Virus record (IMG/VR): IMGVR_UViG_2531839530_000005
Location: 1 to 40,441 of that record
Strand: one strand, 5' to 3'
Length of the DNA: 40,441 nt
Origin: a virus
Taxonomy: Duplodnaviria > Heunggongvirae > Uroviricota > Caudoviricetes
Position numbers and translations under genes: made by a program. Positions 9,189 to 28,907 of this stretch are shown here, piece by piece; within the stretch, counting starts at the first letter, position 1, and each line of letters begins with the position of its first letter. A model generated the notes under the pieces. That model saw nothing but the letters and a program-made list of their open reading frames with translations, had not been told where the DNA came from and did no database searches.

Positions 9189-10219
9189 TCTACATCTCCG
9201 ACTTTGTCCAAAGTGCCTTTTGCCAATAGTTCTTTGCCACCTTTAGCCAGGCAAAGCAGGTCCATATACCACGCCTGCCCTCGGGTGTCGCCAGTATAAT
9301 CAATGCTGCCCACAATGTAATCACCGTCAGTATTAATGCTGGCAGACTGTGACATGCCTGGCAGACCGTTAACGTAGAGATTACCGTCGCTTTCAGACTC
9401 ATCCAGTCGTGCTGGCGATTTCGCTACCTGGTCATTACTCAAAGAGACACGGTATACAGATGCCTGATCCAGACGAATAAGCCCACCGAGCTTAATATTT
9501 GGATTAATCAGGCATCTGACATTTACGCCAGCTCCCATCGTCTGTTGTGGCATACCGATAAGCCCGGTGTTAGCATTCAACACCGTAGCAACACCAATAT
9601 ATTTATCTTCAGGAACAATATTTACCAGATTATTTTCATACCACCAGTTAGCCTTACACTGCCCTGCGATATGATTCATCAACCTTGATGTGTTTTGATA
9701 AACAACGCGACCCCGGGGAAATACCGTTTCAGGCATGTCAGGAACTGCGCCGGATTCGATGCCATATGGTTCGAATGATTTCATACCCAGACTGAAAAGA
9801 TCTCTGTACTTCCAGCCAGCTGCCACTGTGGTTTTCACACTTGCGTTCAGGTGGCCTTCCCAGCTGTCAATACACTGCAACATGATCCAACTGTCTGTGG
9901 CATTATCTTTACCAGTGACAGTAAAACGGATATCTCCATTGAATATCATACCAACGTTTTCATCAAGATAATTACCTGCTGCATCCGGTTGCCCCTTGTA
10001 TCCGGCAATAACCTGTATACGCGAAAACTCCTTCTGCATAATCCGGTTCTGAGTGGTAGGAGACAGGTTATAAACCTTAAAATTTCCAACGAATCCATTA
10101 AATATGGTCGCAGGCATTTTCTGAATATTGAAAGTGACTTTAAGCTCAGAAATTTTTATCCCGTCGCCCTTATCATCAACAAGCAATAATTCAAAGTGAC
10201 GCATCCAGTTTTTCGACAT
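9185..10219 (-). CDS. Tail/baseplate hub protein (P2 gpD / Mu gp44-like position)
   Basis: Position between tape measure region and gpV-like gene; start set at Met preceded by GGAG. Confidence 0.45.
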   Translation of the reverse strand: MSKNWMRHFELLLVDDKGDGIKISELKVTFNIQKMPATIFNGFVGNFKVYNLSPTTQNRIMQKEFSRIQVIAGYKGQPDAAGNYLDENVGMIFNGDIRFTVTGKDNATDSWIMLQCIDSWEGHLNASVKTTVAAGWKYRDLFSLGMKSFEPYGIESGAVPDMPETVFPRGRVVYQNTSRLMNHIAGQCKANWWYENNLVNIVPEDKYIGVATVLNANTGLIGMPQQTMGAGVNVRCLINPNIKLGGLIRLDQASVYRVSLSNDQVAKSPARLDESESDGNLYVNGLPGMSQSASINTDGDYIVGSIDYTGDTRGQAWYMDLLCLAKGGKELLAKGTLDKVGDVE

Positions 10220-10523
10220 TGTTACTCCGTAAAACATAGAGGTGTGAGAGCGTTCCAAGATCGAATTGCGTCGGATTCTCCTGCCCTGCCACGTCGCAGA
10301 GCACCACCAGAGAAAAACCCAGATCCATATATCGATACTGTGCCAGCAGGTCAGCCCCAGTAATCATCGGTATACCTGATATAATGGCGGAGCCATTGCT
10401 GTCAGCAAGATCCAGAACCCAGTACTCGCCTCGCCAGATGACAGACAGGTGATAAACCGAACCGTTAATTGTGGTGGCAAAAGTCTGATTGTCAGCAACC
10501 AGTGGGATTTCTACGGCTTGCAT
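10191..10523 (-). CDS. Tail protein (small, post-tape-measure)
   Basis: Position only. Confidence 0.35.
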   Translation of the reverse strand: MQAVEIPLVADNQTFATTINGSVYHLSVIWRGEYWVLDLADSNGSAIISGIPMITGADLLAQYRYMDLGFSLVVLCDVAGQENPTQFDLGTLSHLYVLRSNNVEKLDASL

Positions 10524-10526
10524 GAA

Positions 10527-11177
10527 TCACCTTCCCAGAAATAAATTGCTCAAATACCCATCAACAGTGGAGATACCTTCTTGCGCCATCTGTGGCAGCG
10601 ATTTCAGAATGGAATTATTCGGCAGCACCGTTGTTTTGGTGCCTGTATTCTGCACAGCAGACGTTCCGACTCCCTCGGTCATATTGTTTTTCGGGGCAAC
10701 CCTGACTGACTGCGTGGAGGTAATAATTACTTCCCTGAGGGTAAGTGTCGCCAGAAGCACATTTTCACTACTCTTATCGGTCGTAACCTCCAGCGTTTTT
10801 ATCAACATATTGTTGTAAATACGCTTGCCGGTTGTCACATCGAAAGGAATACGATTCCGCTGCAGGTTAAGCAGTTCCTGATACAGTTCTTTCGGGCTCA
10901 GCCCCAGTAAACTGGTAGCCGTCAGGTTACTGGCAAAATCAAGCAGCGATCCGCCTCCGGAAAAACCGGTTTCCATCACAACCTCAGAAGGGCGCCTGAA
11001 TGCGTGTTCTGATATATAACCAGCGCCCTCACCACTGGCACCAGCATTCGTGGGCTGTTCAACCGGATGTTCCGTAATTTCCAGGGCGTCAGTGTGCTTT
11101 TCGGTAATAACCACATCAGGAATAATGATTCCTATTGAGCGGGTTCGCTGCTGCAGTAAAACAGATAAAAAGTCCAT
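10527..11177 (-). CDS. Tail protein (post-tape-measure)
   Basis: Position; start overlaps tape-measure stop. Confidence 0.35.
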   Translation of the reverse strand: MDFLSVLLQQRTRSIGIIIPDVVITEKHTDALEITEHPVEQPTNAGASGEGAGYISEHAFRRPSEVVMETGFSGGGSLLDFASNLTATSLLGLSPKELYQELLNLQRNRIPFDVTTGKRIYNNMLIKTLEVTTDKSSENVLLATLTLREVIITSTQSVRVAPKNNMTEGVGTSAVQNTGTKTTVLPNNSILKSLPQMAQEGISTVDGYLSNLFLGR

Positions 11178-13204
11178 TACGCAGGTCCTTTTAATTGCTG
11201 TACCGCCCTGGCATTTACAGCCCCCTGCTTGTCAGCGATCAGATTAGCCGCCTCCTGAGGGTTGTTAACTCCATGAACATTTATAACAGTCTGCTGGTTA
11301 AGGCTGCCAGCGGCGGCCTGATACGCCAGCGGGCTGTTCCAGTTTGAATAACCTTCTTTGCGCGCCATCGACTGCATCAATGCTCCCATAGTCTGGGGAT
11401 CTGTAAGATTCAATATTGCATTCGGTGATACTCCCATCCATTTCGCAACATCCTGTGCATACTTTTTCGGATCGTTGTTATCACCTGCCGGGGCCCAGGT
11501 ACTGACAATATCCTGAATAGTCTGTAATGCTCGTCCGGTTGTTTTCCCGGTAAAGTAACGCATGAGCTGGTTTTTCATCGCCTCCCAGCCCTCAAGAGCT
11601 GATTCGAAAAACCGGAACCCTTTACCGCTCACCGGGCGAATGTTCCCGGGGTTATTGTTGCGATCAGCAAGAGTACCGCCGCCGGGGATGTCGGGCTGGA
11701 CGTTGGAGCCATGCACTACACCGTTACTCTGTCCCTGCCGGATAACTTTACCGGGTCCCCCGTGCAACCAGTCCATCCACGCAGGCCATTCACGGACCTC
11801 ACTGACATCCCTGCGTCCGATATCTGTTTTTATACCAATAGCAGCCAGCGTGTCGCCGATAATTCGCTTCGTATACCTCAGTGAAGATTTTGCGCTATCG
11901 GCAATATTTTCTCTGTCACTAACAATATAGCCCGCGTAAAGCGCCCACAATTTAAGCCAGGGTGGGACCGGTAAACCTGATATTTTTCCGAAAGCCCCCA
12001 GAACCCTGGATACCCAGACACCCGCGATGAATGTACCGAGGATTTCCAGTGCATTTTGCCAGCCGCCAACACCATCTTTTAGTTCCAGAAGGTGATCACG
12101 AAGCCAGGTGATCGCATCCTTCGCTTTATCTATTGCCGGTTGCCATTTTTCCCAGTCGATAAGACTGTTACCGCCTTCTTTCCATGTTTTGTAGTCTTCC
12201 CACAAGAGACCGAGAGCCACGATCAGACCGGTAATCAGCCCTATAGGTGACATCCAGAAAGTAGAGTTAAGTATCCGCATGGCGACAACCAGACCGCCGA
12301 TAACCTCTATCAGGGTTTTCGTTTCGGCATCCAGTTTCCCCCACCACTCGATGATATCGCCGACACCATCGACTATCCGAAATGCTACCCGCCCGACTAT
12401 CTCACCCAGCCAGAGGATCCCCTTTATGACCTTTGTGATGGTGACTTCAATTTTGGGAAAATTTTCAATTATCTTTTTGCGCAGGTTATCAATCTGCCCC
12501 GCCAGTCCGTCCGCAAGATTCGATCCGATTTTGTCCCGCGCCATCCCGGCCATTTCACCGAGCGATTTCAGCGAGGTCATAAACCGGTTTGACGATAAGG
12601 CAGCCTGATCGGCATTAAATCCGATCGCTTTCACCATTTCTGAATACTGAGCGCTGAACTGCCCCACACCACGACGCATGGCCATCAGGGTATTTTCGTC
12701 AATGCCCAGCATCTGCGCATACTGGTTAGCCCGGTAATACGGCATACCGCTGAGCTTCTGGCCTACACCTGTAAAAATAGCGGCCATGTCACGCATGTTG
12801 CCGCTGGCATCACGGGTCTGTACGCCCAGGCGATTCAGAAAGCCTTCTGCTCCGGGATTGTTACGAATAAACCGGGAGAGGCTTTCCAGAGAAGATCGCG
12901 CAGCGTCCACACTGCCGCCAACCTGCGAAACCGCATAGCCAATAGACTGAATTCCCTGGACTGTCGCGCCGGTGCGCAGTGACGCCCAGTAAAGATTATC
13001 CAGACCAGAGGCGATCTTAGCCGTGAAAGCCACCACGGACAGCGCAGCTCCTTCGACGGCCAGCCCCATTTTGATGACATTTGCAGTTGTACCGGCGAGG
13101 ACAGAACCGAACTTTTTCGCTCCTGCATCATCCACACTGAAGCCAAGCGAGACGAGGAAATCTTTAATAGTCTCGGCGTTCATTATCCTCTCTCCATTTC
13201 TCAA
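11177..13204 (-). CDS. Tail tape measure protein with C-terminal NNNPGNIRP-containing domain
   Basis: 675-aa protein with hydrophobic central segments, directly downstream of chaperone pair. Confidence 0.7.
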   Translation of the reverse strand: MRNGERIMNAETIKDFLVSLGFSVDDAGAKKFGSVLAGTTANVIKMGLAVEGAALSVVAFTAKIASGLDNLYWASLRTGATVQGIQSIGYAVSQVGGSVDAARSSLESLSRFIRNNPGAEGFLNRLGVQTRDASGNMRDMAAIFTGVGQKLSGMPYYRANQYAQMLGIDENTLMAMRRGVGQFSAQYSEMVKAIGFNADQAALSSNRFMTSLKSLGEMAGMARDKIGSNLADGLAGQIDNLRKKIIENFPKIEVTITKVIKGILWLGEIVGRVAFRIVDGVGDIIEWWGKLDAETKTLIEVIGGLVVAMRILNSTFWMSPIGLITGLIVALGLLWEDYKTWKEGGNSLIDWEKWQPAIDKAKDAITWLRDHLLELKDGVGGWQNALEILGTFIAGVWVSRVLGAFGKISGLPVPPWLKLWALYAGYIVSDRENIADSAKSSLRYTKRIIGDTLAAIGIKTDIGRRDVSEVREWPAWMDWLHGGPGKVIRQGQSNGVVHGSNVQPDIPGGGTLADRNNNPGNIRPVSGKGFRFFESALEGWEAMKNQLMRYFTGKTTGRALQTIQDIVSTWAPAGDNNDPKKYAQDVAKWMGVSPNAILNLTDPQTMGALMQSMARKEGYSNWNSPLAYQAAAGSLNQQTVINVHGVNNPQEAANLIADKQGAVNARAVQQLKGPA

Positions 13205-13361
13205 TGCGCCGCTGGTTATCCGCTTTTACCGCCAGATGGTCATTCAAGAGAGCAATGTCGTACAAATCGACAGAGCCATCTTTAAGTGATGTATAAGGAA
13301 TTAACCCGGCGTCAACCGGATTGAGAAGGTAGGACAGCCCGTCCGGCAGGCTGTTAAACAT
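13164..13361 (-). CDS. Tail assembly chaperone frameshift extension (gpT-like part of G/GT)
   Basis: Reading frame is open upstream through the 3' end of the chaperone gene in the -1 frame; start overlaps chaperone stop (TGATG). Confidence 0.5.
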   Translation of the reverse strand: MFNSLPDGLSYLLNPVDAGLIPYTSLKDGSVDLYDIALLNDHLAVKADNQRRIEKWREDNERRDY

Positions 13362-13813
13362 CAGCCCTGTTGCAGGCTCTGCGTCGTGCTGGTAAGGGGT
13401 GTAGGCAAAAAATTTCCCAGCGAATCGGCGACCACCCGCGCCACCAGCTGCAGCATGACCAGCAAGTCAATATCATCAAACATCAGTTCGCCCTGGGTAA
13501 ATACCGGCACCCATCCATCCATATGACGCCGCGACACCACCGCAAGACAGGGATGAATAATCGCATCGGTGTCATCTTCGGTCAGGGAAGACAGTTCCTC
13601 AGCGATACGCGGGAGCATGGTTTCAAACACCGGTTTTAACTGCTCGAATTTCACGGTGTCGATTTTGCCGTCAGCAGGCAAACGGGAGCGAATGCTCCCG
13701 AAATCTGACATCATTCCCGCCAGTACCGGCAGAAGTTTGCGGGTCACTTTCAGCTGGTCAAAAACGCTGAGTTTTGCCACGCGATATTTCACGCCTTTGA
13801 TTTCGAATTCCAT
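13361..13813 (-). CDS. Tail assembly chaperone (gpG-like)
   Basis: Acidic 150-aa protein immediately upstream of tape measure, with frameshift-compatible downstream ORF. Confidence 0.55.
   Translation of the reverse strand: MEFEIKGVKYRVAKLSVFDQLKVTRKLLPVLAGMMSDFGSIRSRLPADGKIDTVKFEQLKPVFETMLPRIAEELSSLTEDDTDAIIHPCLAVVSRRHMDGWVPVFTQGELMFDDIDLLVMLQLVARVVADSLGNFLPTPLTSTTQSLQQG
13406..13412 (-). other. Candidate -1 ribosomal slippery site (minus strand T_TTT_TTG within GGGAAATTTTTTGCC)
   Basis: Homopolymeric run near 3' end of chaperone; -1 frame from here is stop-free into ORF 13164-13361. Confidence 0.4.
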
Positions 13814-13816
13814 GTA

Positions 13817-14551
13817 TTAAAACTCCCCGAGAACCTGGTCAATCTTGCCGCAGTCAAACACCCACGGCATCGTATTACCGGTTTTAGCGTTGGCGTTACC
13901 CGCAGATGAAACGATGATGCTGGACAACAGAGCAAACTGTTCAGGCGGGATCAGCAAATCACGCGGGACCACAGAGTAACCAGAAGCGGCCCACGCATCA
14001 GACAGCACCTGGTTAATGCTTGCGCGGATTTCGTCCGGTGTTGAGGTTGCCCACGTTTTGGCAGCGTTGTTGACAGGCACGCCGTCCAGGGTAACAAGGC
14101 CTTTCAGGTTTAATGCGGAATCGCCAACATATACCTGTTCATCGTTATCCATCTGCCATTTCAGTTGCATCCCGTCATACTTCTGCGTATCAATCGGGCG
14201 GCCGACCTGCTGAGCAGCCTGCAATTCTATGACCGTCCAGCCAAGTTCCATCCCCCACAGGTTCAGCGGGTTACCGGATTTGCCGGTATCCACGTTCACG
14301 CCAGCAATAGCGGTTGAGTCTTTGCCTACCCAGTTTTTGCCATTCGGATTTGCACCAGTACCCGCAGCGGCGAAGCTGGTATTCGTCCAGCTGGAAATGT
14401 CATCTGCGATAGAGACATCTTCACGCAACTGAATATCGCGGGTCCAGGTGTACCCCACCAGTGGCAGGTTCAGCGTCTGGTCGAGTCGCTCCAGCTCCCC
14501 GATGAGAAAGGCACCAGAGCTGTCAACGGTTGCCTGATCAAAAGTAATCAT
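13817..14551 (-). CDS. Major structural protein: major tail (tube) protein by position, or small HK97/encapsulin-like major capsid protein
   Basis: 244 aa; sits between head genes and G/GT chaperone; identity unresolved. Confidence 0.45.
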   Translation of the reverse strand: MITFDQATVDSSGAFLIGELERLDQTLNLPLVGYTWTRDIQLREDVSIADDISSWTNTSFAAAGTGANPNGKNWVGKDSTAIAGVNVDTGKSGNPLNLWGMELGWTVIELQAAQQVGRPIDTQKYDGMQLKWQMDNDEQVYVGDSALNLKGLVTLDGVPVNNAAKTWATSTPDEIRASINQVLSDAWAASGYSVVPRDLLIPPEQFALLSSIIVSSAGNANAKTGNTMPWVFDCGKIDQVLGEF

Positions 14552-14562
14552 TCGTCTGTTCC

Positions 14563-15069
14563 TTAAATCTTCCAGGAAATTTCTGCATTGCCGTTAGCAT
14601 CACCGGCACCTGTGAATTCAGCGTTGGTCAGCACCACATTTTTGCCACTGACTGACGTGGACATGAATCCACCCAGCGGCACTTTCATGGATTCATCAGT
14701 GGAGACGACAACGTATACCGGGTCGCCTTTTTTGATAGTGCTGGCATCAAAATCAGAACCGAGATTAACGGTCACGTAGCCACGCTTCATGGCGTCGCCC
14801 GGGAAGTTCTTGCCTGTTCCCACCTAGCGAACCATGTCCGGCTGCGACGTGGTCGGATAAGGGCGCACGTAGATCCCCTTCACCTTGTCTGCGGTATCAC
14901 CATCTGCCAGCGGCACGAAAAAACCGTCATCATCGTATTTACCAGCCAGCCCATAGGCAGCGAAGGCGTTATCGGATTTAAGGACCACCGGTTCGACGGT
15001 TAAGTCCTGCGGGCGAGAGACAGCCCCGGCAATACCAACAGGCATCCGGTACAGAAATACATTATTCAT
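14563..15069 (-). pseudogene. Head structural/decoration-like gene interrupted by in-frame TAG (81 aa + amber + 86 aa)
   Basis: TAG at 14824-14826 separates two ORFs in the same frame; no SD before downstream GTG. Confidence 0.4.
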
Positions 15070-15072
15070 TTT

Positions 15073-16293
15073 TTACCCTTTACGGTTTGCCCAGAATTCA
15101 GCGTTTTGTTTGTTCAGGGAAGCGATACTGGTCATGCCCATGTTTAGGCGCTGTGCATCGCCGGTGGTGGCGCGGGTGTTTCGCCCTTTGGCAATCTCAG
15201 ACACGGCATTAAACGCCATGTCGACCGATTGTTTCGGCAATTTGCGGATATCCGCATCACCAACTATCTGGCGAACCAGCGTTTTGTCAGCGGAAGCCAG
15301 AACCTCGCGTTTGAACGCGGTCGGTTTCATCTTACGGCTCAGATCGATACCCGGAACAATAACTTCGGCACGCCAGGCTGAGTCACCAGTAATCGTGGTT
15401 TCCTCTTCATCGTCCTCGCCGTCACCGGTCGGATTATCGTCAGGCTTATTATCGTTATCGCCCGTGGCATTTCCTTCCAGCTTAGCCAGCAGGGCTTTCA
15501 GTAATGTTTTGAGGTCATCATCACTGTCGCCGGTTGGGCCTCCCCCCATCTCTGGTGCTTTGTCCGGTAGTGGTTGCTGCGGGGACAGGTTGATATTGAG
15601 ATTAACGCCCTGCGGCAAATCCCCCTCATCTCCTGTAACCGATGCGGGAGCCGACTCCACCAGTTCGTTCATGGTGTCGGCATCTCCTGTCTTGATGGCC
15701 GCACGCATGCGGTTCCACCAGTTTTTCTTTTGATTTGCCATTGTGTCTCTGTCTCCAATTGCACAACGATTTCCGGCTCTGCCTTTAGGGACAAGAGCCA
15801 CATGGTTTCCGGTAATATCGACCTGCTCAGCTTTACCTGGCTCGGTCTGCTCGTACTCCGCGTCATAGCCGCACGACACTTCGCGCAGGCCATCTTCGAT
15901 AAGCTGAATGGCGTTTTCGTCTTTGACGATAAGGTCAGCCAGCATCAAATCAGACTGCTCACCCATCCCGCGCCGGACATTCTGGAGGTGCCCGACAGCA
16001 AGCTCTTTCCAGTTCTCGGGATTTACCAGCCGCACATTCCCGTTTTCATCTTCAGGATGCAGAATCGTGATGCTCATCCCTTCGAATGAGGCAAGCGTGG
16101 CCGGATGGAATACCTGCTCAGGAGAACGCGTGACGACTATTTCACCGAACTTATCGGGTTTCAGTTTTGGCAGGTCATCAGCACCATAGAGCTGCTTACC
16201 TGTTCGTCCTATCGGCACGTCTCTGCACAGCAACGAGCCGTCAGCCAGCTGATAGCGGGTTTCCCCCAGCCGGGTATTGAAAAAATATTTCAT
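15073..16293 (-). CDS. Putative prohead protease/scaffold protein with acidic low-complexity linker
   Basis: Conserved N-terminal domain, Asp/Glu-rich middle, position after head-morphogenesis gene. Confidence 0.5.
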   Translation of the reverse strand: MKYFFNTRLGETRYQLADGSLLCRDVPIGRTGKQLYGADDLPKLKPDKFGEIVVTRSPEQVFHPATLASFEGMSITILHPEDENGNVRLVNPENWKELAVGHLQNVRRGMGEQSDLMLADLIVKDENAIQLIEDGLREVSCGYDAEYEQTEPGKAEQVDITGNHVALVPKGRAGNRCAIGDRDTMANQKKNWWNRMRAAIKTGDADTMNELVESAPASVTGDEGDLPQGVNLNINLSPQQPLPDKAPEMGGGPTGDSDDDLKTLLKALLAKLEGNATGDNDNKPDDNPTGDGEDDEEETTITGDSAWRAEVIVPGIDLSRKMKPTAFKREVLASADKTLVRQIVGDADIRKLPKQSVDMAFNAVSEIAKGRNTRATTGDAQRLNMGMTSIASLNKQNAEFWANRKG

Positions 16294-16307
16294 GTGTTAC
16301 CTGCGAT

Positions 16308-17042
16308 TCAGGCGGGATAAGATTGGGAGGTGGGAAAAACGATTTCTTTATAACAGCGACAATTCGGGAGCTCGCCAGCGTGACCTGTCATGCCGTCAAG
16401 CGTTGGAGGTTTGCCCCATTCGACAAATTTACCTTCCATTTCCCGATGAGAATGCCTGACGTCACCATCTTCGGCTGTACGCCAGATATAACCATTCGAA
16501 CCAATTGACAGCGCACGCGCCTGATCCAGCGCGCCGGTTGCACGTCCAAGTTCAGTACGGGCAATCAGGTCAGCTCTGGACTTTGCTATATCACCCGATG
16601 CGGCTATTTCTTTAGCAAAATATTCTGCTCTCCCACCGGTCACAACAGCTTCTGTCGCCCGATTCTGGATGTCGTACACCCTGTCAGCCGCCTCGAGGGG
16701 GAGCGATTTGATGTACTTGACCTGTTCGGCGATGATGGATTGCATCACCTGGCCCACAGGAGCGCTTTCCACAAGATTGCGGAGCTCGCGACTGATGTTC
16801 TTGCTGTGTTGCCGCCAAACTTTCTCGTTCTGCCGGGTTAGGTCCGCAGTAAAGTTTTCCGCGACCTTTGTCGCCCAGGGGGGGATGATTTCACTGTAGC
16901 GTTCCAGCGCCTCAATAATTTCCGTGATACTGTCATTTGAACCATCGTAGCGACCATTTACGATGTCTCCGACCGCCCGCGCTATCCTGCGTAGGCTGGT
17001 TCGATAGCGGATTTCCGCCTGACGGTTCCTGCGGTTCGTCAT
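16308..17042 (-). CDS. Head morphogenesis protein (Mu gpF / SPP1 gp7 family)
   Basis: C-terminal HSHREMEGK...CRCYKEIVFP motif characteristic of Mu F-like minor head proteins. Confidence 0.65.
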   Translation of the reverse strand: MTNRRNRQAEIRYRTSLRRIARAVGDIVNGRYDGSNDSITEIIEALERYSEIIPPWATKVAENFTADLTRQNEKVWRQHSKNISRELRNLVESAPVGQVMQSIIAEQVKYIKSLPLEAADRVYDIQNRATEAVVTGGRAEYFAKEIAASGDIAKSRADLIARTELGRATGALDQARALSIGSNGYIWRTAEDGDVRHSHREMEGKFVEWGKPPTLDGMTGHAGELPNCRCYKEIVFPTSQSYPA

Positions 17043-18399
17043 CAGATTCGCCGATGCCGGGCGGCGCTTCATCTTCGGCATTCTCGATGTCCTCGTCGGT
17101 AATGGATGCCCCGATGCCGGTTACGTCAGAATTTTCGCGCAAATCAGTCATAGCGGCTTTCAGTGTCATCAGACCATCACCCAGCGCCGTACTGATTGCG
17201 TTGGTAGTGTTTAACGCCACCGTTGAGCGATCGACATCAGACATTTGCCAGAGCGGGTTAAACTCAAACGTGAAATCATCCGGGAGCGGCTTGCCAAGTT
17301 CCGAACGATGCATGATGTCCAGTATCCGACGCACCGGAAGACGTAAACGCCTCTCCTGCAACGAACTGATGCGGTCGTAATAGTTGGCAAGATCTGCATC
17401 ACCGGTAGAAAATCCTTTCGGGGACTGTCCGAACAACCGCACCAGTGGAATACCAACAGCGCCACTAATCTGTTCTGCAAACTGCGATAGGATGTCATCC
17501 AGACCACTGAAGCTGTACTGATGCGTTTCAAACTTATCCCGCGAGTCCATGAGCGTCATGCCTTCATTGCTCTGGAACTGTCGAATCAGGTCGATATTCT
17601 TCAGCAACGCTTCATACGCAGGACCACCAAGTGCGATAAGCTCGCGTAGCTTCTCCACGCTGTAGGTACGCAAATGCGCCTTGTAGACCAGCTGCGCCGC
17701 GCCGACAGTAGCGCTGTCGAACGCGGTAAGACGATCCCAGATACGCTCTACAACCGACATTCCCCATTCGTTCTCGGTCATCTTCTGCTGAAATGGCAGC
17801 GTGACGCCATCAAAGCGAATCAGGCGACTGTGATGAATGCGCCAGGCAGGAATTCCCGTTGCTGTGGTCACCACATCGTAAAACTCAGGTTTACCCAGGT
17901 CCGGCCCCATATCTTTAATGCGGCGGGTCAGTACCGGGTCGATCATCCAGCGGTCGAGCGGGAGAATCCCCTTAAACTTGCCCTTACAGATGGTTTCGGG
18001 TCGCAGCGGGGTCATTGGTGCCTGCCCCTCAATCATGATGAAACCCACCGCGCCGCCGTAGAGGCGCGACCATTTCAGCACGTCATTCAGCGCATCCCAG
18101 ATTTGCAACTCATCCAGTTGTGATTCGAGAATGCCACGATCTTTTGCATCAATTTCCGAAGTGATGCGAATGCCTTTGCGGGTCATATCATCCGGGATAG
18201 CATCGACTGCTTCACCGATGATCCAGGATGAACGATAGGACCATTCCACCAGCATGCGGTTACGACTGGTGAAATTAGCCCGGTAGGTGGATGCTGAGTG
18301 CTGGTTAGGTGTCTGCATCCCTACGCGGGCAATAAAATTCTCATAACCATCAGCTGTAGCCTGCGCAGTTCGCCGCAGGGCTTGTTTGTTTCGTGCCAT
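16933..18399 (-). CDS. Portal protein
   Basis: 488 aa immediately downstream of large terminase; acidic C-terminus. Confidence 0.65.
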   Translation of the reverse strand: MARNKQALRRTAQATADGYENFIARVGMQTPNQHSASTYRANFTSRNRMLVEWSYRSSWIIGEAVDAIPDDMTRKGIRITSEIDAKDRGILESQLDELQIWDALNDVLKWSRLYGGAVGFIMIEGQAPMTPLRPETICKGKFKGILPLDRWMIDPVLTRRIKDMGPDLGKPEFYDVVTTATGIPAWRIHHSRLIRFDGVTLPFQQKMTENEWGMSVVERIWDRLTAFDSATVGAAQLVYKAHLRTYSVEKLRELIALGGPAYEALLKNIDLIRQFQSNEGMTLMDSRDKFETHQYSFSGLDDILSQFAEQISGAVGIPLVRLFGQSPKGFSTGDADLANYYDRISSLQERRLRLPVRRILDIMHRSELGKPLPDDFTFEFNPLWQMSDVDRSTVALNTTNAISTALGDGLMTLKAAMTDLRENSDVTGIGASITDEDIENAEDEAPPGIGESDDEPQEPSGGNPLSNQPTQDSAGGRRHRKWSLRWFK

Positions 18400-20021
18400 C
18401 AGGCCTGTCTCCCTAGCAGCTCCCAGATGTTCAGGGCTGAATTCATTGGGGCATAGTTGATCATCACCGAGTCGGCAAGGTTTGGCGACCGGGTTCCATC
18501 AGGCTGTTTATCAATAACGATTTTTCCCACACTATTAATGGAATAGGTCGGCTGCGAAAGCTCGATGATGAGTTTATCTTTGAGTGCCATGCTACTGCTG
18601 ATTGAGATGATCTCGTCCGGGTTGTAAGCCATACCTTCAACCACGGCGCGCCAGGTATTCTGAAAAAGTTTACGTAACCGCCACCAGCTCTGGGCTTTGG
18701 CGTTAGCGAAGAAGTCCTTGTTCAGACGTGCGGCTTGCCCGTTGTCCCCGCGAACAGCTTCATCATCCGGATCAAATACCGCGCCACTACCTCGAAACGG
18801 TGTGGCAAGTATTGACGGTCGACGCGCAGCGTTACGCAGTTCGTTGATAGCGCGTGCATCGCCGCGAACGCCAGCGCCCAGCCCGTCCTCGTCAAAGCGA
18901 AACTCTTCGAGGTTGTCCTGTTCGCAAAAGCCGAAAACCTTCTCAACGGACTGATAAATGTCGCTGCCCACACCGGACCATTCCCGCACATTCTCCAGGA
19001 GGAAGCCATGACGGGTGGAAAAGGCATTTTTGTCCCTGCCTTCGTCGGCGACATCCATCGCGCCAAGTCGTTTGCCTGTTGGCTGGATACCCAGTTTGAT
19101 ATGCGCATCAACTGCAGCCTGTACCCATTCGGATGGAATCAGGACGCCTTCCGCTGATGCGCTGTAGTTCAGATCAAGTTCCTGTGCCACCACCACCGGA
19201 TTATCGATTTTCTCGCATTCCCTGCGATACCACTCTTCATCCTTGCGAAGATCATCTCGCCAGTGGAATGTGAATACCGGTATCTTCCCGCCATGACGCT
19301 TCTGAGCGAACGGGTTCGCCATGCCGTTAACTGAACTCAGGTCAATACGGCAACGCGTCGTTTGTGACAACGCCGCATCAATCAGCAGAGGACGCTGAAG
19401 GAATGCAGCCTCATCAACCAGATAAAGCGTGGTACGGTCACCACGACCAATATTATCGCCAGCCTCGCCTTTGATAACGGCACCAGTTTCAGGAAACTCA
19501 ACACGCATATATGGCGCGTGCTTCTTCTCGCTCCACGAACCGCGAAACTCTACAGGTAGCGTTTCCACGAACTTGCGCGCCTTCCAGAACAATGCTTTCG
19601 GGTCACCAGTGCTGTCGACGTATTCCTCTTTACGGGAGCCGAAACCGATAACCATTTCTTTGTTGAAGAGACAAAGCGAGCAGGCCAGTCCGATCGCGGT
19701 CCAACTGAGCCCCATTTCACGGGATTTTTCGGTAATACCATTCTCCCGATTGCTCCAGCGTTCCATAATCCAGTGGATCCACTCCTCCTGCTTAGGGAAG
19801 AGTAAAAACGGAATGGTCACCGGCAGGCCATAATCAATATTACGCGGGTCCGTTGTCATGCCCCAGTCGATGATGAACTGAGCCGGATTAGTTCGGTAAA
19901 ACTGTTTTAGTGCAGGCAATATTTCAGGATTCTGGCGAATGCGCTGTAGGCGTTCCATCCGCCATTCAAAAACCATCTGGTAATCAGGATGTTTAAAATC
20001 GAAGGGGAATGGTAACGGCAT
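18399..20021 (-). CDS. Terminase large subunit
   Basis: 540 aa; Walker-like region and nuclease-like C-terminus; position after small subunit. Confidence 0.8.
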
Positions 20022-20023
20022 AC

Positions 20024-20575
20024 TTAGCCCATTATTTTTCTATACGCCTCTGCAGCCTGCTCCGGCGTTAAGTTGGTAATTTCTGTTCTGACTGGTCCTC
20101 CATCAGCGCCAGTCACTTCATTTTTGACGTTGTCTTTAAACGCCTGAACAGAAACATGACGCCCAAGCAACTCAAGGTTTTTAACCTTATCAGGCCATTT
20201 GATTTTCTTCAGAAGTGCGGCGCTATCTGCGGATACCATCTCCACGACATCCATTCCTGATAGCGTTGTGCGCCATACCTTAGGCCAGTCTTTAATGGGC
20301 TTTAGCTCACCGTTTTGCAGGAGAATGTCGAGCACATCCATCTGGTCGATTTCAATAAGGCGATTAAGTACATATTCTGCATTAATACCAACAAGATCAT
20401 TGCGTTGCGCTTTCAGTTCGGCGATTCTTAACTTGATGTCAGGTTTTGACAGGTTTTCGGATGCGGTACGGTTAGCTGTCTTTGCGCTGTACCCCGCCCG
20501 AATAGCCGCTTGCGTGGCGTTTAAATCGATGAGGTACTCGCGACAGAACATCTCTTGTTTGTCGGTGAGTGCCAT
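20024..20575 (-). CDS. Terminase small subunit
   Basis: N-term [33 protein letters not shown] typical of terminase small subunits. Confidence 0.65.
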
Positions 20576-20599
20576 GACAAAGTCTCAATTGGATTGAAA

Positions 20600-20872
20600 A
20601 TGAGTGATTTATTACTAATTAAAAACTGGTTAATTGACCATCATGCACTATCGATTTTCTTTGGGTTTTTATCGGCTGGGGTATGGATCAAATCAGCAAC
20701 AGCCAAAGTCAAAACAGGTAGAAGCACCGTTGTAGCAATTACATTTGATGATCCCAAAAAAAATGTAGATCTTCACGAATTTTTCTTAACTGCGCGGTTA
20801 CAGTCTAAATATAACTCATATGCAGCTTTCGCTGCTGCTGTAACTGTGATTTTGCAAATGGCTGGCTATTAG
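20600..20872 (+). CDS. Hypothetical small membrane protein
   Basis: ORF with hydrophobic segment; weak RBS. Confidence 0.25.
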   Translation: MSDLLLIKNWLIDHHALSIFFGFLSAGVWIKSATAKVKTGRSTVVAITFDDPKKNVDLHEFFLTARLQSKYNSYAAFAAAVTVILQMAGY

Positions 20873-23783: not shown

Positions 23784-24359
23784 TTAAAGCTGCATCAACC
23801 TTTCCACCAGTTTATCTCTGCGAACAACAAACCAACCATTGGCTCTCGCCAGTTCCAGCCATGACTCAAGGGAAATAACAATATCATCATCCCGTAACTG
23901 AATTGTGGAAACAGTGACACCGCCTCTCTGATAACAGAGAACTCGCGTGTCGTAACTTTTCTGGCATGAAACTGGCGTTGACGGATCCTTTTGACTGAAA
24001 TAGCAGTCTTCCAGTTTTTCGAACACATCCCATGCCTGATCGGTTTCGAGCATTTTGGCGTGGCGTGCTGCGCCTCGTTCTGTCCAGAGGATGAGGGAGC
24101 GGGCTTTGGGTGAAACTGGATTTTGTGAGTAGTTTAAAGCGACCCGCAATTCTTTAAGGTCATTACCAACAACTTTGAAAAAGTGTTTCCCTTCAACGAA
24201 GCGTACTTTGTTCTCATGATGATTCTGGCGAATACGCACCGGCTCAGTGCCGTAAAGCTGCGCCAAAAGTTCGGTGGTAATAACAGGAATCTGGTTATGG
24301 GTGATCGGGGAGAGAGTTTCAACAGAGATTTGAGTGGTCATAACGATAACTCCGTACAT
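23784..24359 (-). CDS. KilA-N/ORF6N-domain protein (antirepressor-like moron)
   Basis: N-terminal ITTELLAQLYG...VRFVEGKHFFKV motif typical of ORF6N/KilA-N DNA-binding domains. Confidence 0.55.
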   Translation of the reverse strand: MYGVIVMTTQISVETLSPITHNQIPVITTELLAQLYGTEPVRIRQNHHENKVRFVEGKHFFKVVGNDLKELRVALNYSQNPVSPKARSLILWTERGAARHAKMLETDQAWDVFEKLEDCYFSQKDPSTPVSCQKSYDTRVLCYQRGGVTVSTIQLRDDDIVISLESWLELARANGWFVVRRDKLVERLMQL

Positions 24360-24503
24360 TTGGACATTATCGCCACCGTCAGGTGCTAATCATCGTGGTG
24401 GCGAACTGTGCGGGGTTAGCACTACCGGGTACGGAAACCGGCGAGCCTTTCGGCTCCCCCACACAGCCCGCCATAAATCGCGAATGTGACTGTGCAAACG
24501 ATA

Positions 24504-24527
24504 TGAAAAAAAGACGCGGGCGCGTCT
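24504..24527 (-). terminator. tR'-like terminator downstream of Q-like gene
   Basis: Palindrome AGACGCG-GG-CGCGTCT followed by T7 on minus strand, about 60 nt past the predicted promoter. Confidence 0.55.
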
Positions 24528-24589
24528 CATATCGCTCCGTAAACATCCGGGGTGCTAATCCCGACGCCAGATTTTGCTGGCGCGTGAGG

Positions 24590-24619
24590 AATATAGCCCC
24601 GGATAACAGATTGAGTCAA
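24590..24619 (-). promoter_or_regulatory. pR'-like late promoter (-35 TTGACT, 18-nt spacer, -10 TATATT)
   Basis: Read on minus strand; -35 overlaps the Q-like stop codon. Confidence 0.4.
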
Positions 24620-25038
24620 CAGACGGTTTTTAGATCCCCGGAAGAGAATGCATCACGCATCGGTAGATAGAGCATATATTCAGCAAGATTTAGCCATACA
24701 TCTACCCGACTGCAGCACGTCCGGAAACACCACTCGGGGTGTGCATCATTCAACAGTTCAGCCATTTTGCGCTTGGTCATCCCCCTCCCTTCATAGCGTT
24801 GCCGGAGAATGCAAATCAATCCTGGATGCTCTGCCAGCACCTCACTTATGACTCGATCAATACATAACGCCTCTGCATCAGTACAATGCGCCAGCCAGCT
24901 CTTTTGCTTGCCGTTGATCATCTCTCTCAAAAACGCTTCCAGCTCAGCTTTCTCTATTCCCGCTTTTTTCATTCTGCGCAGGGCTTCATTGATGGCTGTT
25001 TTCGTCAATTTTTTGGATGCCAACAACTGATTGAACAT
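24616..25038 (-). CDS. Putative late-gene antiterminator (Q-like)
   Basis: Position upstream of promoter/terminator unit and lysis genes; HTH-like C-terminus; start chosen at Met with AGGA RBS. Confidence 0.45.
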   Translation of the reverse strand: MFNQLLASKKLTKTAINEALRRMKKAGIEKAELEAFLREMINGKQKSWLAHCTDAEALCIDRVISEVLAEHPGLICILRQRYEGRGMTKRKMAELLNDAHPEWCFRTCCSRVDVWLNLAEYMLYLPMRDAFSSGDLKTVC

Positions 25039-25166
25039 ATTTCCTGACCTGCCACCGCCAATATACGACCAGCGCCCCCACATACGCAGTTTGCCCCGAA
25101 TCCAGACACTTTCCAGCGTGGTGAGACGAAGGTGTTCTCCGCTTTTTCCTGTATTCGTTGGGTAAA

Positions 25167-25457
25167 TCACAAATATCCCTCCTTTCTCCAGATTTCTTGT
25201 GTGCGAAAAACACCTTCTGCATGCATCAGGCGTAATTCTTCTTTGGTGTAATCGCTGGTTTTTACCCGCCCGTCGATTAAATCGTGGCATGAGCTACAGG
25301 CAATCGCTGCCTGCATATCGTGTGGTTTTGTCGCTGTTCCGCACGTCCCCGCCAGCCTGTAATGCGCCAGCACAGACGTTTCGGGATTGTGATTGCAGTA
25401 GCCAGGGATTCTGACCTGGCACATCTGGCCCCGCGCCGCTTTACGTAAATCCACCAT
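25167..25457 (-). CDS. Cys-rich nin-region protein (DUF1364/YbcO-like)
   Basis: Cys cluster CQVRIPGYCNH...CSSCHDLIDGR. Confidence 0.5.
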   Translation of the reverse strand: MVDLRKAARGQMCQVRIPGYCNHNPETSVLAHYRLAGTCGTATKPHDMQAAIACSSCHDLIDGRVKTSDYTKEELRLMHAEGVFRTQEIWRKEGYL

Positions 25458-26056
25458 TACGCAAACTCCAGCAGCTGCACGGCCACATTTTCGACTTCCT
25501 CCGGAGAGGAAAATTTACGGAACAGGATCCAGTTCCACAGCACATTCAGTACAGATTTATAAACCTGCTGAAACTCGGTTTCGTCCATGTTCGCAAATGC
25601 GATAGATTTTGCCCTGCGCCCACGACTACCATCAGGATAAATATGCTCGGTGTAAAATCCGGCCTGAATGGTTACCCACTCGCGGAAAGCGTCAAACGAC
25701 TTTAGCAATGCCGTATCCCGGGTTCTGCATGTCGCAACTGTATTAAGGTATTGCTCTGCGGCATCACTCAGGGCTGGAGTGTGTTCCCGACCTACTGATT
25801 CGCACAGGTAATCAACGAAGCCTGATACCAGTTTTCGTTCGCGAGGCGTGATCGCCCCACCGACCGGAGTCCAGTAATCGAATCCCAGTTGCAGGAGTTT
25901 GAAAAAACGCTTGTGAAATGCGTAGTTACGCACACGCTTAAAGTCTGCGTGTATCCACTCACCTATTTTGATTTGATGCAAAAAATCGCAACTCTCCGGC
26001 GTCGCCGGGAGAAGTAATCCGGAAGAGGTTTGTTTGACCAGTTGTATATGCGCCAT
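25457..26056 (-). CDS. nin-region protein (DUF1367-like)
   Basis: 199-aa ORF in conserved lambdoid position upstream of Q. Confidence 0.5.
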   Translation of the reverse strand: MAHIQLVKQTSSGLLLPATPESCDFLHQIKIGEWIHADFKRVRNYAFHKRFFKLLQLGFDYWTPVGGAITPRERKLVSGFVDYLCESVGREHTPALSDAAEQYLNTVATCRTRDTALLKSFDAFREWVTIQAGFYTEHIYPDGSRGRRAKSIAFANMDETEFQQVYKSVLNVLWNWILFRKFSSPEEVENVAVQLLEFA

Positions 26057-26127
26057 CGTAGTTCTCCGCTGGCGCAGTAGAATGGGTGTTCAGCCCGTTA
26101 TGTAGTATACCAGAATTAATGCCAATA

Positions 26128-26379
26128 CTAACATGATGCTCTGACTCGCAATTCATCCAGCAGTTTATCATTTCCCATAATGTCACTTACCCTCATCGGT
26201 AAAAAAATTGCCTTTCGACCATTACGATACATCATTGATTTTGGGGTTTCAGGGAAGTAATCCATTTCGACTATAACTGACAGGTCATCACGACGTATGA
26301 CTGCGTATTTGCTACTAAATAGTCTCTTTATTTTTTCCACGATGCTTCCAGGTTTATAAGTACAAACGGTTATATCCAC
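26128..26379 (-). CDS. Hypothetical protein (Rem-like position), AT-rich
   Basis: 83-aa ORF between hok and nin genes. Confidence 0.35.
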   Translation of the reverse strand: MDITVCTYKPGSIVEKIKRLFSSKYAVIRRDDLSVIVEMDYFPETPKSMMYRNGRKAIFLPMRVSDIMGNDKLLDELRVRASC

Positions 26380-26524
26380 ATAGAGACAAAAATATTAATC
26401 TGAAAAATATTTATTTCACGCCGTATATTTGATTGTTTAATGTGCAGGTACAATGACTTTTATTTTTTGTTGTGTATATAATCAAATATATGGTTATTTT
26501 TCACCCTGCGCATTCAGCGCGCAA

Positions 26525-26548
26525 CAAAAAACCCGCCGAAGCGGGTTT
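26525..26548 (-). terminator. Rho-independent terminator of hok transcript
   Basis: Stem AAACCCGC / GCGGGTTT with loop CGAA followed by T-run on minus strand. Confidence 0.45.
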
Positions 26549-26615
26549 AGTGCGGGTGCGTTGAGGATGCCTGACACATGAGAGGTGGCGAGGGATTTCT
26601 CCCCCGCCTGGTCTC

Positions 26616-26771
26616 TTACTCCTCAGATTCGTAAGCTGTGAAGACAGCAACCTCCGTCTGGCCGGTACGGATTCGTACCTCGCAGAGGTCTTTCCTCGTT
26701 ACCAGTGCCGTCACTATGACGGTTAAACAGATGACGATCAGGGCGATTAACATCGCCTTTTGCTGCTTCAT
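26616..26771 (-). CDS. hok: Hok/Gef-family type I toxin (51 aa)
   Basis: Translation MKQQKAMLIALIVICLTVIVTALVTRKDLCEVRIRTGQTEVAVFTAYESEE; not in the >=60-aa ORF track. Confidence 0.85.
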   Translation of the reverse strand: MKQQKAMLIALIVICLTVIVTALVTRKDLCEVRIRTGQTEVAVFTAYESEE

Positions 26772-26981
26772 AGCCTGCTTCTCCTTGACCTTTCGGTCCG
26801 TAAGAGGCTAATCTCTATGTGTCGCATAGATATGGCCTCAGATTAATGTTAAGCGTCTTGCAGGACGCGTAATGTTAACTGGGGCTTTTCTCTATCTGCC
26901 GTTGGTGTTCATGCCCGAGGCAGATAGCCTCAAGCACCCGCAGCAATTCTACTTAACTCCCGTCACCTCGCCAATATGAAA

Positions 26982-27071
26982 TCAATCAGAAAGGCGATCC
27001 ATAAGAACAACAGCAAGACAATAAATTGCCATTACAGCCGCAATAGCCAGCGCACATTTCAGAACCAGCAC
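26982..27071 (-). CDS. Candidate 29-aa hydrophobic peptide (GTG start, SD GGGAGG)
   Basis: VLVLKCALAIAAVMAIYCLAVVLMDRLSD; strong SD 5 nt upstream. Confidence 0.3.
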   Translation of the reverse strand: MLVLKCALAIAAVMAIYCLAVVLMDRLSD

Positions 27072-27232
27072 GATGACCTCCCATATTTGACGTACACGCG
27101 CATGATTCAATATGCAGCAACCTATTTCCTGCTTCAATATAAAATCAGGTATTGTTGTATAACTATTTAACTAACTCCCTATCCCCACATCTCAGGCGCT
27201 CAACGTCTGTGTGCGGGGCGTTTTTTAATACC

Positions 27233-27316
27233 TTACCCCCAGCGGCAAATCGCATACACCACCAGCGCCACCGCCATTGCAATTCCTACCGTTGTGAATG
27301 CTTCAGGCCATGTCAT
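27233..27316 (-). CDS. Candidate 27-aa hydrophobic peptide (SD GGAGG)
   Basis: MTWPEAFTTVGIAMAVALVVYAICRWG; SD about 10 nt upstream. Confidence 0.3.
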   Translation of the reverse strand: MTWPEAFTTVGIAMAVALVVYAICRWG

Positions 27317-27437
27317 CGTAAAACATCCTCCACACCAACCAGTCCGTTCTGCTTCAGATATTCCATCGCATTATCAGGTAGATTGCTTGATTTATTGACG
27401 CTTTTTAACGAACTGGCTAATCGCTTAACCAACATTG

Positions 27438-27848: not shown

Positions 27849-27858
27849 GTGTTACTCC

Positions 27859-28892: not shown

Positions 28893-28907
28893 AAGCGCCT
28901 CCGGCAA

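What the first reader, a model, noticed from the sequence alone, without database searches (positions are those of the whole stretch)
13361..16293. Structural module appears to lack either a major capsid or a tail tube gene
Between the portal/head-morphogenesis genes and the tape measure I can account for a protease/scaffold-like protein, the split small structural gene, one 244-aa protein and the G/GT chaperones. By position the 244-aa protein is the major tail protein, which leaves no recognisable major capsid protein or head-tail connector. If it is instead an encapsulin-like capsid protein, there is no tube protein. Either the phage has an unusual structural repertoire or a deletion has occurred.
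Basis: inference. Interest (0 to 1): 0.45.

Follow-up and report, generated by a model that had tools for sequence, protein, structure and literature searches.

The report
Deletion-crippled prophage: capsid fused to tail tube
A roughly 4-kb deletion in an E. coli prophage joined the front of its capsid gene to the last 25 codons of its tail-tube gene and removed everything between, so this is an ordinary dead prophage, not a phage with an unusual set of parts.

Summary
Its cause is a deletion. The 244-aa ORF (13817-14551, minus strand) is an in-frame chimera. Residues 1-219 are the N-terminal 70% of a 313-aa PF09950/DUF2184 HK97-type major capsid protein. Residues 220-244 are the last 25 residues of a 146-aa DUF3277/KPP10_Orf10 tail tube protein. 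The junction lies at 13895-13902, in an 8-bp imperfect microhomology. Intact relatives are over 300 E. coli prophages, phage vB_EcoM-611R5 and the myovirus SEN34. They carry 3.9-4.05 kb here: the capsid C-terminus, STY1053, DUF4054, a Neck1-like protein, a 129-aa head protein, the tail terminator, the sheath and the tube. None of these is elsewhere in the window. The "split" gene is a cement protein with a CAG-to-TAG amber mutation. All other structural genes are intact (93-100% aa). The same junction and TAG occur in independent assemblies, so this is not an assembly error. None of 5,426 complete E. coli genomes has the junction. A 99.9%-identical sister prophage carries a different structural deletion, and one sub-lineage has a second one. 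Verdict: a recently inactivated SEN34-like temperate myovirus prophage. Low interest.

The parts
13817..14551 (-). 244-aa in-frame chimeric ORF: capsid N-terminus fused to tube C-terminus (a pseudogene product)
   Evidence: Pfam Major_capside covers residues 73-221, profile positions 4-158 of 251 (E=3e-49). KPP10_Orf10 covers residues 218-242, profile positions 120-144 of 144. phrog_264 is matched over positions 16-235 of 321.
13895..14551 (-). Capsid-derived part (codons 1-219 of a 313-codon DUF2184/PF09950 HK97-type major capsid gene)
   Evidence: This stretch belongs to blocks that are 99.1% identical to L001 and 99.9% identical to L003, where the gene is 942 nt. The intact homologue matches the Pam3 major capsid 8hdt_A at E=9e-19.
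13817..13894 (-). Tail-tube remnant (last 25 codons plus stop of a 146-codon DUF3277/KPP10_Orf10 gene)
   Evidence: tblastn: tube residues 121-146 of L002 are 100% identical to window 13897-13820. The intact tube matches the Pam3 tube 8hdr at E=8e-10.
13895..13902 (.). Deletion junction. The microhomology is GTTACCCG on the + strand. The capsid parent has GTTACCCG and the tube parent GTTATCCG, so the crossover lies within GTTA (13895-13898).
   Evidence: The two BLAST blocks against L001 and L002 overlap by 8 bp at the junction.
14563..15069 (-). Cement (decoration) protein gene, 168 codons, interrupted by an amber codon
   Evidence: PF23982 XM1_gp53_minor_capsid and PF22758 Phage_cement match the two halves at profile positions 1-75 and 83-153. 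The gene is intact, at 168 aa, in L001, L002 and L003.
14824..14826 (-). TAG nonsense codon (Gln82 CAG to TAG, a single C-to-T change)
   Evidence: Codon comparison with L001 and L002. The same TAG is present in three independent assemblies.
15073..16293 (-). 406-aa DUF2213/Pa193_gp24 protein: putative scaffolding protein or head maturation protease, intact
   Evidence: PF09979 E=3e-42. phrog_1961 E=1e-198, and phrog_12864 and phrog_530 'head maturation protease'. Pa193 gp24 was identified as a putative scaffold (PMC11456595). It is 98.5% aa identical to L002 with no stops.
13361..13813 (-). Tail assembly chaperone (G-like), intact
   Evidence: PF21822 Phage_TAC_15 E=2e-31 and phrog_1688 E=2e-65.
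13164..13361 (-). DUF6889 ORF in the -1 frame of the chaperone (T-like extension)
   Evidence: PF21829 E=4e-21. The -1 frame is open from 13466, and the tandem slippery heptamers G_GGA_AAT and T_TTT_TTG at about 13406-13418 are in the correct register.
11177..13204 (-). Tape measure protein with a C-terminal lytic domain, intact
   Evidence: phrog_2276 E=1e-247. It is 99.85% aa identical to L002.
16308..17081 (-). Mu F-like head morphogenesis protein, intact
   Evidence: PF04233 E=2e-17 and phrog_324 E=1e-89.
16933..18399 (-). Portal protein, intact
   Evidence: PF06381 E=2e-105.

Best explanation
The window holds a temperate SEN34-like (Brunovirus-related) myovirus prophage integrated between pphA and yebY of an E. 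coli chromosome. A single deletion of about 4 kb has inactivated it. The deletion arose by illegitimate recombination at an 8-bp imperfect microhomology (gene orientation: CGGGTAAC in the capsid gene, CGGATAAC in the tube gene). It joined codon 219 of the major capsid gene in frame to codon 122 of the tail tube gene. Lost were the capsid C-terminal 94 residues, STY1053, the DUF4054 protein, the Neck1-like protein, a 129-aa head protein, the tail terminator, the DUF3383 sheath and the first 121 codons of the tube. Without these the prophage cannot build heads, necks or tails (inferred). A later CAG-to-TAG mutation in the cement gene fits relaxed selection. Everything else in the morphogenesis operon is still intact, so the loss is recent. 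Shown here: the chimera, the breakpoints, the missing gene set, the nonsense codon, and recurrence of the junction in independent assemblies. Inferred: the deletion mechanism, the loss of virion production, and the order of the two lesions.
For: (1) Profile matches split the 244-aa ORF into capsid (Major_capside positions 4-158 of 251, E=3e-49) and tube C-terminus (KPP10_Orf10 positions 120-144 of 144). phrog_264 is matched over 16-235 of 321. (2) Against intact prophages the window aligns in two blocks that abut at 13895-13902. The relatives have 4,054 bp (L001) or 3,908 bp (L002) between the blocks. The fusion reads capsid ...SSAGN then tube ANAKTGNTMPWVFDCGKIDQVLGEF*. (3) The missing interval in relatives encodes STY1053, DUF4054, Neck1-like (phrog_222), a head protein (phrog_939), the tail terminator PF23961, the sheath DUF3383 (phrog_205) and the tube. 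The sheath, tube and capsid match solved Pam3 and XM1 virion proteins. (4) The isolated phage vB_EcoM-611R5 (97% identity) has the full block. SEN34 (82% identity) has a contractile tail by electron microscopy (PMC5261728). (5) tblastn with all L002 structural proteins finds every other gene full-length without stops at 93-100% aa identity (one moron, hyp111, is 61%). It finds nothing for the missing genes. The cement gene has one stop, which is CAG to TAG. (6) The exact chimeric protein is on 14 contigs. Three independent assemblies (two NCBI, one Logan/SRA) have an identical junction and TAG. (7) The 99.9%-identical sister prophage in strain 300709, at the same site, has an intact capsid and cement gene but a different deletion. 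ERR1937495 adds a second deletion, from spike to tape measure.
Against: No direct evidence was found against it. Loss of particle production is inferred from gene content, not observed. Only 40 kb of the genome is visible, so a co-resident related prophage that could supply the missing parts in trans cannot be excluded. The fusion is in frame, which happens by chance about one time in three but would also fit a retained function. The single-sequence AlphaFold model of the chimera was uninformative (pLDDT 32), so the truncation of the fold rests on sequence alignment to Pam3 gp7.
Confidence: 0.95

Rival explanations
1. This is a functional phage with an unusual, reduced structural repertoire. 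Either the 244-aa protein serves as an encapsulin-like capsid and there is no tube, or it serves as a tail protein and the capsid is unrecognisable.
For: The ORF is in frame, starts normally and is well spaced from its neighbours.
Against: The ORF is a chimera of two unrelated genes whose parents are found intact, at 97-100% identity, in over 300 genomes and in an isolated myovirus. The capsid profile is matched over only 155 of its 251 positions. The cement gene also carries a nonsense codon.
Confidence: 0.01
2. The deletion is an assembly artefact: a collapsed or misjoined contig.
For: None of 5,426 complete E. coli genomes, and no species-representative genome, has the junction.
Against: An identical junction and an identical TAG occur in two separate NCBI assemblies and in a Logan assembly of a separate sequencing run. 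In all, 14 contigs encode the exact chimera. An 8-bp microhomology is far too short to collapse an assembly.
Confidence: 0.01
3. The element is a domesticated or satellite-like derivative under selection. It might rely on a helper SEN34-like phage for capsid, neck, sheath and tube. Or the truncated capsid-tube chimera might poison assembly of related superinfecting phages.
For: The fusion is in frame. Terminase, portal, scaffold, baseplate, lysis and early genes are all retained intact. Three different structural-module deletions occurred in the same prophage lineage. Many E. coli strains carry related prophages that could serve as helpers or targets.
Against: The lineages differ by only about 0.05% (15 mismatches in 32 kb), so intact flanking genes are expected without any selection. 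An additional nonsense mutation and further deletions look like decay, not refinement. No satellite hallmarks, such as capsid-size redirection or helper-sensing genes, were seen. Independent deletions with different endpoints are what random decay of a non-essential operon predicts.
Confidence: 0.03

Closest known systems
Escherichia phage vB_EcoM-611R5 (also 606R2, 683R1, 689R2) and the SEN34-like prophages of E. coli O103:H2 12009, ETEC H10407 and IGC_RcoliRes_1.1
   Same: The morphogenesis module is collinear from small terminase to baseplate and 97-99% identical in nucleotides. The families match: DUF1073 portal, Mu F, DUF2213, cement, DUF2184 capsid, TAC_15/DUF6889, tape measure, Dit-like, Pam3-type plug, spike, baseplate J and DUF2612.
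   Different: They carry the seven-gene block from capsid C-terminus to tube (3.9-4.05 kb) that the window lacks, and an uninterrupted cement gene.
Salmonella phage SEN34 (Brunovirus SEN34)
   Same: It has the same head and tail gene set at 82% nucleotide identity over 63% of the module, with a lambdoid early region. Electron microscopy shows an icosahedral head and a contractile tail.
   Different: SEN34 is a viable phage with an intact capsid, neck, sheath and tube. It also has a different host and different accessory genes.
Cyanophage Pam3, a 'minimal myophage' (PDB 8hdt, 8hdr, 8hdw)
   Same: It is the nearest solved virion. The intact relatives' capsid (E=9e-19), tube (E=8e-10) and sheath (E=4e-24) match the Pam3 proteins. 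The plug gp18 and cement families are also shared.
   Different: The sequence relationship is distant. Pam3 is a lytic cyanophage and serves here only as a structural reference for what the deleted parts do.
Cryptic (defective) prophages of E. coli such as Rac, e14, DLP12 and Qin (own knowledge; general literature on prophage decay and domestication)
   Same: It is an integrated prophage that lost essential morphogenesis genes by deletion and point mutation. It retains integrase, recET/kilR/ralR-type early genes, toxin-antitoxin genes and a lysis cassette (mapping).
   Different: It is much younger. Only one deletion and one nonsense codon separate it from a complete genome, and the deletion endpoints are still readable as a chimeric ORF.

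Membership tests
PF09950 Major_capside / DUF2184 (HK97-fold major capsid protein) | Significant match to the family profile | tested here: met
   E=3e-49, 168 bits against a cut-off of 26.8. phrog_264 'major head protein' E=6e-66.
PF09950 Major_capside / DUF2184 (HK97-fold major capsid protein) | Full-length coverage of the fold (about 313 aa in this clade, profile 1-251) | tested here: not met
   Only profile positions 4-158 of 251 are matched. The intact relative matches 4-251. Residues 220-313 are missing, and these align to Pam3 gp7 at about 216-309. The window ORF is therefore a capsid gene fragment, not a capsid protein.
PF11681 KPP10_Orf10 / DUF3277 (myovirus tail tube) | Full-length match to the 144-position profile | tested here: not met
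   Only positions 120-144 are matched (E=9e-4, below the cut-off). The intact 146-aa relative matches 1-144 at E=5e-61 and matches the Pam3 tube 8hdr.
Phage cement/decoration protein (PF22758 Phage_cement, PF23982 XM1_gp53) | Single uninterrupted ORF of about 168 aa covering the profile | tested here: not met
   The two halves match profile positions 1-75 and 83-153 and are separated by an in-frame TAG. Relatives have CAG at that codon.
Defective (cryptic) prophage | Integrated in the chromosome with integrase and flanking host genes | tested here: met
   The window ends match the yebW/pphA and yebY sides of the chromosome. Integrase lies at 38631-39707.
Defective (cryptic) prophage | Loss of genes essential for virion formation relative to viable relatives | tested here: met
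   The capsid is truncated. The neck, terminator and sheath genes are absent and the tube is truncated. All are present in vB_EcoM-611R5 and in over 300 prophages.
Defective (cryptic) prophage | Failure to produce infectious particles on induction | not testable with these tools
   This needs induction followed by electron microscopy and plaque assay.
SEN34-like temperate myoviruses (genus Brunovirus and relatives) | Collinear morphogenesis module with nucleotide similarity to SEN34 | tested here: met
   82% identity over 63% of window 5400-20600. This supports relatedness. Genus-level membership (about 70% genome-wide identity) was not computed.
SEN34-like temperate myoviruses (genus Brunovirus and relatives) | Contractile tail genes (sheath and tube) present | tested here: not met
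   These genes are deleted in the window. The window is a derivative of such a phage, not a working one.
Lambda-type G/GT tail chaperone pair | Chaperone ORF followed by a -1 frame extension, with a slippery heptamer in register, upstream of the tape measure | tested here: met
   G_GGA_AAT and T_TTT_TTG are in register. The -1 frame is open from 13466 into DUF6889. The site is conserved in L001, L002 and L004, which are close relatives. Actual frameshifting cannot be tested here.
Phage satellite (PICI/P4-like) | Lacks a structural module as a designed state, and carries helper-exploitation genes | tested here: not met
   It retains terminase, portal, scaffold, tape measure and a complete baseplate. 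The gap is a fresh deletion with readable parental ends.

The most novel reading that the evidence does not exclude
The in-frame capsid(1-219)-tube(122-146) chimera is expressed from the late operon and acts as a dominant-negative assembly poison against superinfecting or co-resident SEN34-like phages. On this reading, the three different structural-module deletions seen in this one prophage lineage reflect selection for a disarmed but still useful element, not neutral decay.
Probability: 0.03. Interest if true: 0.5.

Novelty: new member of a known kind. Interest (0 to 1): 0.08.

Why it matters
It matters little beyond annotation. The 244-aa ORF should be annotated as a capsid/tube fusion pseudogene and the cement gene as a pseudogene. 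The prophage should be scored as defective in prophage or induction surveys. The case is a clean, datable example of prophage decay: one microhomology-mediated deletion plus one amber codon, with sister lineages carrying different deletions. It could be useful for teaching or for estimating deletion rates. It does not reveal a new virion architecture.

Tried and rejected
(1) A single-sequence AlphaFold2 model of the 244-aa chimera gave mean pLDDT 32 and pTM 0.25. It was unusable, so no fold search was run. Sequence matches to the solved Pam3 proteins were used instead.
(2) An exact-match scan for the 37-bp junction in one-genome-per-species contigs found nothing. This was expected, because the deletion is clone-specific.
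(3) Junction-spanning searches in 5,426 complete E. coli genomes gave no spanning hits. The lineage was then found through an exact protein look-up.
(4) Six antisense ORFs in 13361-16293 were checked as hidden capsid or tube candidates and had no PHROG match.
(5) I looked for a suppressor tRNA that could read the amber codon. There are no tRNA genes in the window.
(6) Loci L005-L007 could not be read from the script sandbox. They were compared with DNA alignment and get_sequence instead.
(7) Relocation of the missing genes elsewhere in the window was considered and rejected on the tblastn result.
(8) The large protein-database searches were not run, because they could not have changed the conclusion.
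Full report
**Observation**

All genes in the flagged interval are on the minus strand. In order of transcription they are listed below.

| Window coordinates | Product | Family evidence |
|---|---|---|
| 16933-18399 | Portal | PF06381, E=2e-105 |
| 16308-17081 | Mu F-like head morphogenesis protein | PF04233 |
| 15073-16293 | 406-aa DUF2213/Pa193_gp24 protein | E=3e-42; PHROGs 'head maturation protease' |
| 14824-15069 and 14563-14823 | Two abutting in-frame ORFs of 81 and 86 aa | N- and C-terminal halves of the cement profiles PF23982 and PF22758 |
| 13817-14551 | 244-aa ORF | see next section |
| 13361-13813 | 150-aa tail assembly chaperone | PF21822 |
| 13164-13361 | 65-aa DUF6889 ORF | PF21829 |
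| 11177-13204 | Tape measure | phrog_2276, E=1e-247 |

The family of the 406-aa protein was identified structurally as a putative scaffolding protein in phage Pa193 (PMC11456595), so 'protease/scaffold-like' is fair.

**What the 244-aa ORF is**

- Pfam Major_capside (PF09950, formerly DUF2184) matches residues 73-221 at E=3e-49, but only over profile positions 4-158 of 251.
- phrog_264 'major head protein' matches over positions 16-235 of 321.
- Residues 218-242 match the last 25 positions (120-144 of 144) of KPP10_Orf10 (PF11681).

The ORF is thus a chimera of two unrelated genes.

A megablast of 13100-15100 against 5,426 complete E. coli genomes found 373 genomes with matches, and none that spans the junction. 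Every match to the head side stops at window 13895. A 601-bp query centred on the junction gave the same result.

**Mapping the deletion**

- Against the prophage of E. coli O103:H2 12009 (L001), window 12136-13902 aligns to L001 6188-7954, and window 13895-20212 aligns to L001 12001-18319. L001 holds 4,054 bp that the window lacks.
- Against strain IGC_RcoliRes_1.1 (L002, 97-98% identical across the whole module), the missing segment is 3,908 bp.
- The two blocks overlap by 8 bp, at 13895-13902. The window reads GTTACCCG. The capsid parent has GTTACCCG and the tube parent GTTATCCG.
- In gene orientation the protein reads capsid ...IIVSSAGN followed by tube ANAKTGNTMPWVFDCGKIDQVLGEF*. This corresponds to capsid residues 1-219 of 313 and tube residues 122-146 of 146.
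- A short imperfect microhomology at the junction is the usual signature of illegitimate (slippage-type) deletion. This step is inferred.

**What was lost**

In L001, L002 and the isolated phage vB_EcoM-611R5 (L004), the interval between the capsid gene and the chaperone encodes the genes below.

| Missing gene | Size | Family |
|---|---|---|
| Capsid C-terminus | 94 aa | PF09950 |
| STY1053-family protein | 73 or 122 aa | STY1053 family |
| DUF4054 protein | 135 aa | phrog_302, virion structural |
| Neck1 / tail completion-like protein | 184 aa | phrog_222 |
| Head protein | 129 aa | phrog_939 |
| Neck/tail terminator | 182-187 aa | PF23961 |
| Tail sheath | 381 aa | DUF3383, phrog_205 |
| Tail tube | 146 aa | DUF3277/KPP10_Orf10 |

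The functional names rest on solved virions:

- The intact capsid matches the Pam3 major capsid 8hdt at E=9e-19.
- The tube matches the Pam3 tube 8hdr at E=8e-10.
- The sheath matches the XM1 sheath 7kh1 at E=5e-41 and the Pam3 sheath at E=4e-24.
- Pam3 gp7 has a canonical HK97 fold and gp6 is the cement trimer (PMC9942802).

The element therefore derives from a contractile-tailed phage. Its relative SEN34 (82% nucleotide identity over 63% of the module; genus Brunovirus) has an icosahedral head and a contractile tail by electron microscopy (PMC5261728).

tblastn with all L002 structural proteins shows that the missing genes are nowhere else in the 40-kb window.

**The split gene**

The two small ORFs are one 168-codon cement gene with CAG (Gln82) changed to TAG at 14824-14826. 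L001, L002 and L003 all have CAG at that codon.

**State of the rest of the module**

Every other structural protein of L002 is found full-length and without stops, at 93-100% amino-acid identity. One inter-baseplate moron is 61% identical. The intact genes include both terminase subunits, portal, Mu F, DUF2213, chaperone, DUF6889, tape measure, Dit-like protein, Pam3-type plug, hub, spike, the gpW-like protein, baseplate J and DUF2612. Inactivation is therefore recent.

**The deletion is real, not an artefact**

An exact look-up of the chimeric protein finds it on 14 contigs. Three independent records carry a base-identical junction and the same TAG. They are NCBI GCA_049980305.1, NCBI GCA_000356185.2 and a Logan assembly of run ERR1937495. 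The deletion is thus a heritable marker of a small clone. It is absent from the 5,426 complete genomes and from the species representatives.

**Decay in progress**

- Strain 300709 (L003) carries the same prophage at the same site, between pphA and yebY. It is 99.89-99.94% identical, with 15 mismatches in 32 kb.
- Strain 300709 has an intact capsid, STY1053, DUF4054 and cement gene. It lacks everything from inside the Neck1-like gene to inside DUF2612, which corresponds to window 5586-13894. That is an independent deletion with different endpoints.
- The ERR1937495 contig has the window's junction plus a second deletion, from inside the spike gene to inside the tape measure gene (window about 8265-12734), at a 4-bp microhomology.
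- Three different deletions and one nonsense mutation in near-identical copies are what neutral erosion of a no-longer-needed operon predicts.

**Mechanism and consequence**

What is shown is the genotype. What is inferred is the phenotype.

- A capsid protein lacking its last 30% cannot complete the HK97 fold. In the HK97 topology that stretch includes part of the A-domain and the C-terminal P-domain strands.
- With no adaptor, connector, terminator, sheath or tube, neither heads nor tails can be finished.
- The element may still excise, replicate and lyse, but it should release no infectious particles unless a related helper supplies the parts.

**Rivals**

- An unusual functional repertoire is rejected by the chimeric nature of the ORF and by the intact parents found in relatives.
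- An assembly artefact is rejected by the recurrence of the junction in independent assemblies.
- A selected or domesticated state, either helper-dependent or with the chimera acting as an assembly poison, cannot be excluded. It has no positive support beyond the in-frame fusion and the recurrent deletions.

**Comparison and novelty**

This is a new instance of a very familiar thing: a cryptic prophage produced by deletion. All the gene families are known and are annotated in relatives. A specialist would not be surprised.

**Not informative**

The single-sequence AlphaFold model of the chimera had a pLDDT of 32 and could not be used.

Noticed in passing
window 13361-13480 (minus strand), with the DUF6889 ORF at 13164-13361: The chaperone gene ends with two tandem slippery heptamers in the correct register, G_GGA_AAT and T_TTT_TTG, at about 13406-13418. 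The -1 frame is open from 13466 into the DUF6889 ORF. This fits a lambda G/GT-type programmed -1 frameshift. PGAP annotates DUF6889 in relatives as a separate 54-aa gene.
   Followed up: partly
L003 (E. coli 300709, NZ_CP025903.1) 8198-9773, equivalent to window 5586-13894: A sister prophage at the same pphA-yebY site is 99.9% identical. It carries an independent, larger deletion from inside the Neck1-like gene to inside DUF2612, but has an intact capsid and cement gene.
   Followed up: yes
L006 (Logan ERR1937495 contig) 4700-4960, equivalent to window about 8265-12734: This sub-lineage has the same capsid-tube junction and the same TAG. It has a second deletion of about 4.5 kb that fuses the tape measure gene to the spike gene at a 4-bp microhomology.
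   Followed up: yes
window 1398-5451: The tail-fibre end of the prophage is scrambled. It holds a pinE-type invertase (1398-1988) and a gp53-like C-terminal fragment (1979-2371). Next come remnants annotated in the sister strain as a partial tail fibre assembly protein, a partial integrase and a partial LexA/S24 repressor. A low-GC (30%) Acyl_transf_3 gene lies at 3045-4094 on the opposite strand, next to a 388-aa fibre with a glycine-rich C-terminus (4285-5451). No intact fibre assembly gene is present. It looks like an insertion or recombination with another prophage's int-repressor-acyltransferase (O-antigen modification-like) segment.
   Followed up: partly
window 23784-39707: The early region is lambdoid and Rac-like. 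Mapped through the 99.9%-identical L003 annotation, it carries recE (34410-37043), recT, kilR, ralR, hokD, ydaT/ydaV homologues, excisionase and integrase (38631-39707). The element is therefore a mosaic of a Rac-type early region and a SEN34/Pam3-type myovirus morphogenesis module.
   Followed up: no
window 8474-9188: Two small non-structural ORFs sit between the baseplate hub and spike genes. One is a 79-aa DUF4282 membrane protein (8474-8713). The other is a 111-aa protein with a signal-peptide-like N-terminus (8853-9188) that is only 61% identical to its counterpart in L002, whereas the flanking genes are 97-100% identical. It looks like a variable moron slot.
   Followed up: no
L001 (E. 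coli O103:H2 12009) 14414-15149: In this otherwise 'intact' reference prophage the Mu F-like minor head gene is annotated as frameshifted. Some of the relatives used for comparison are therefore themselves decaying.
   Followed up: no
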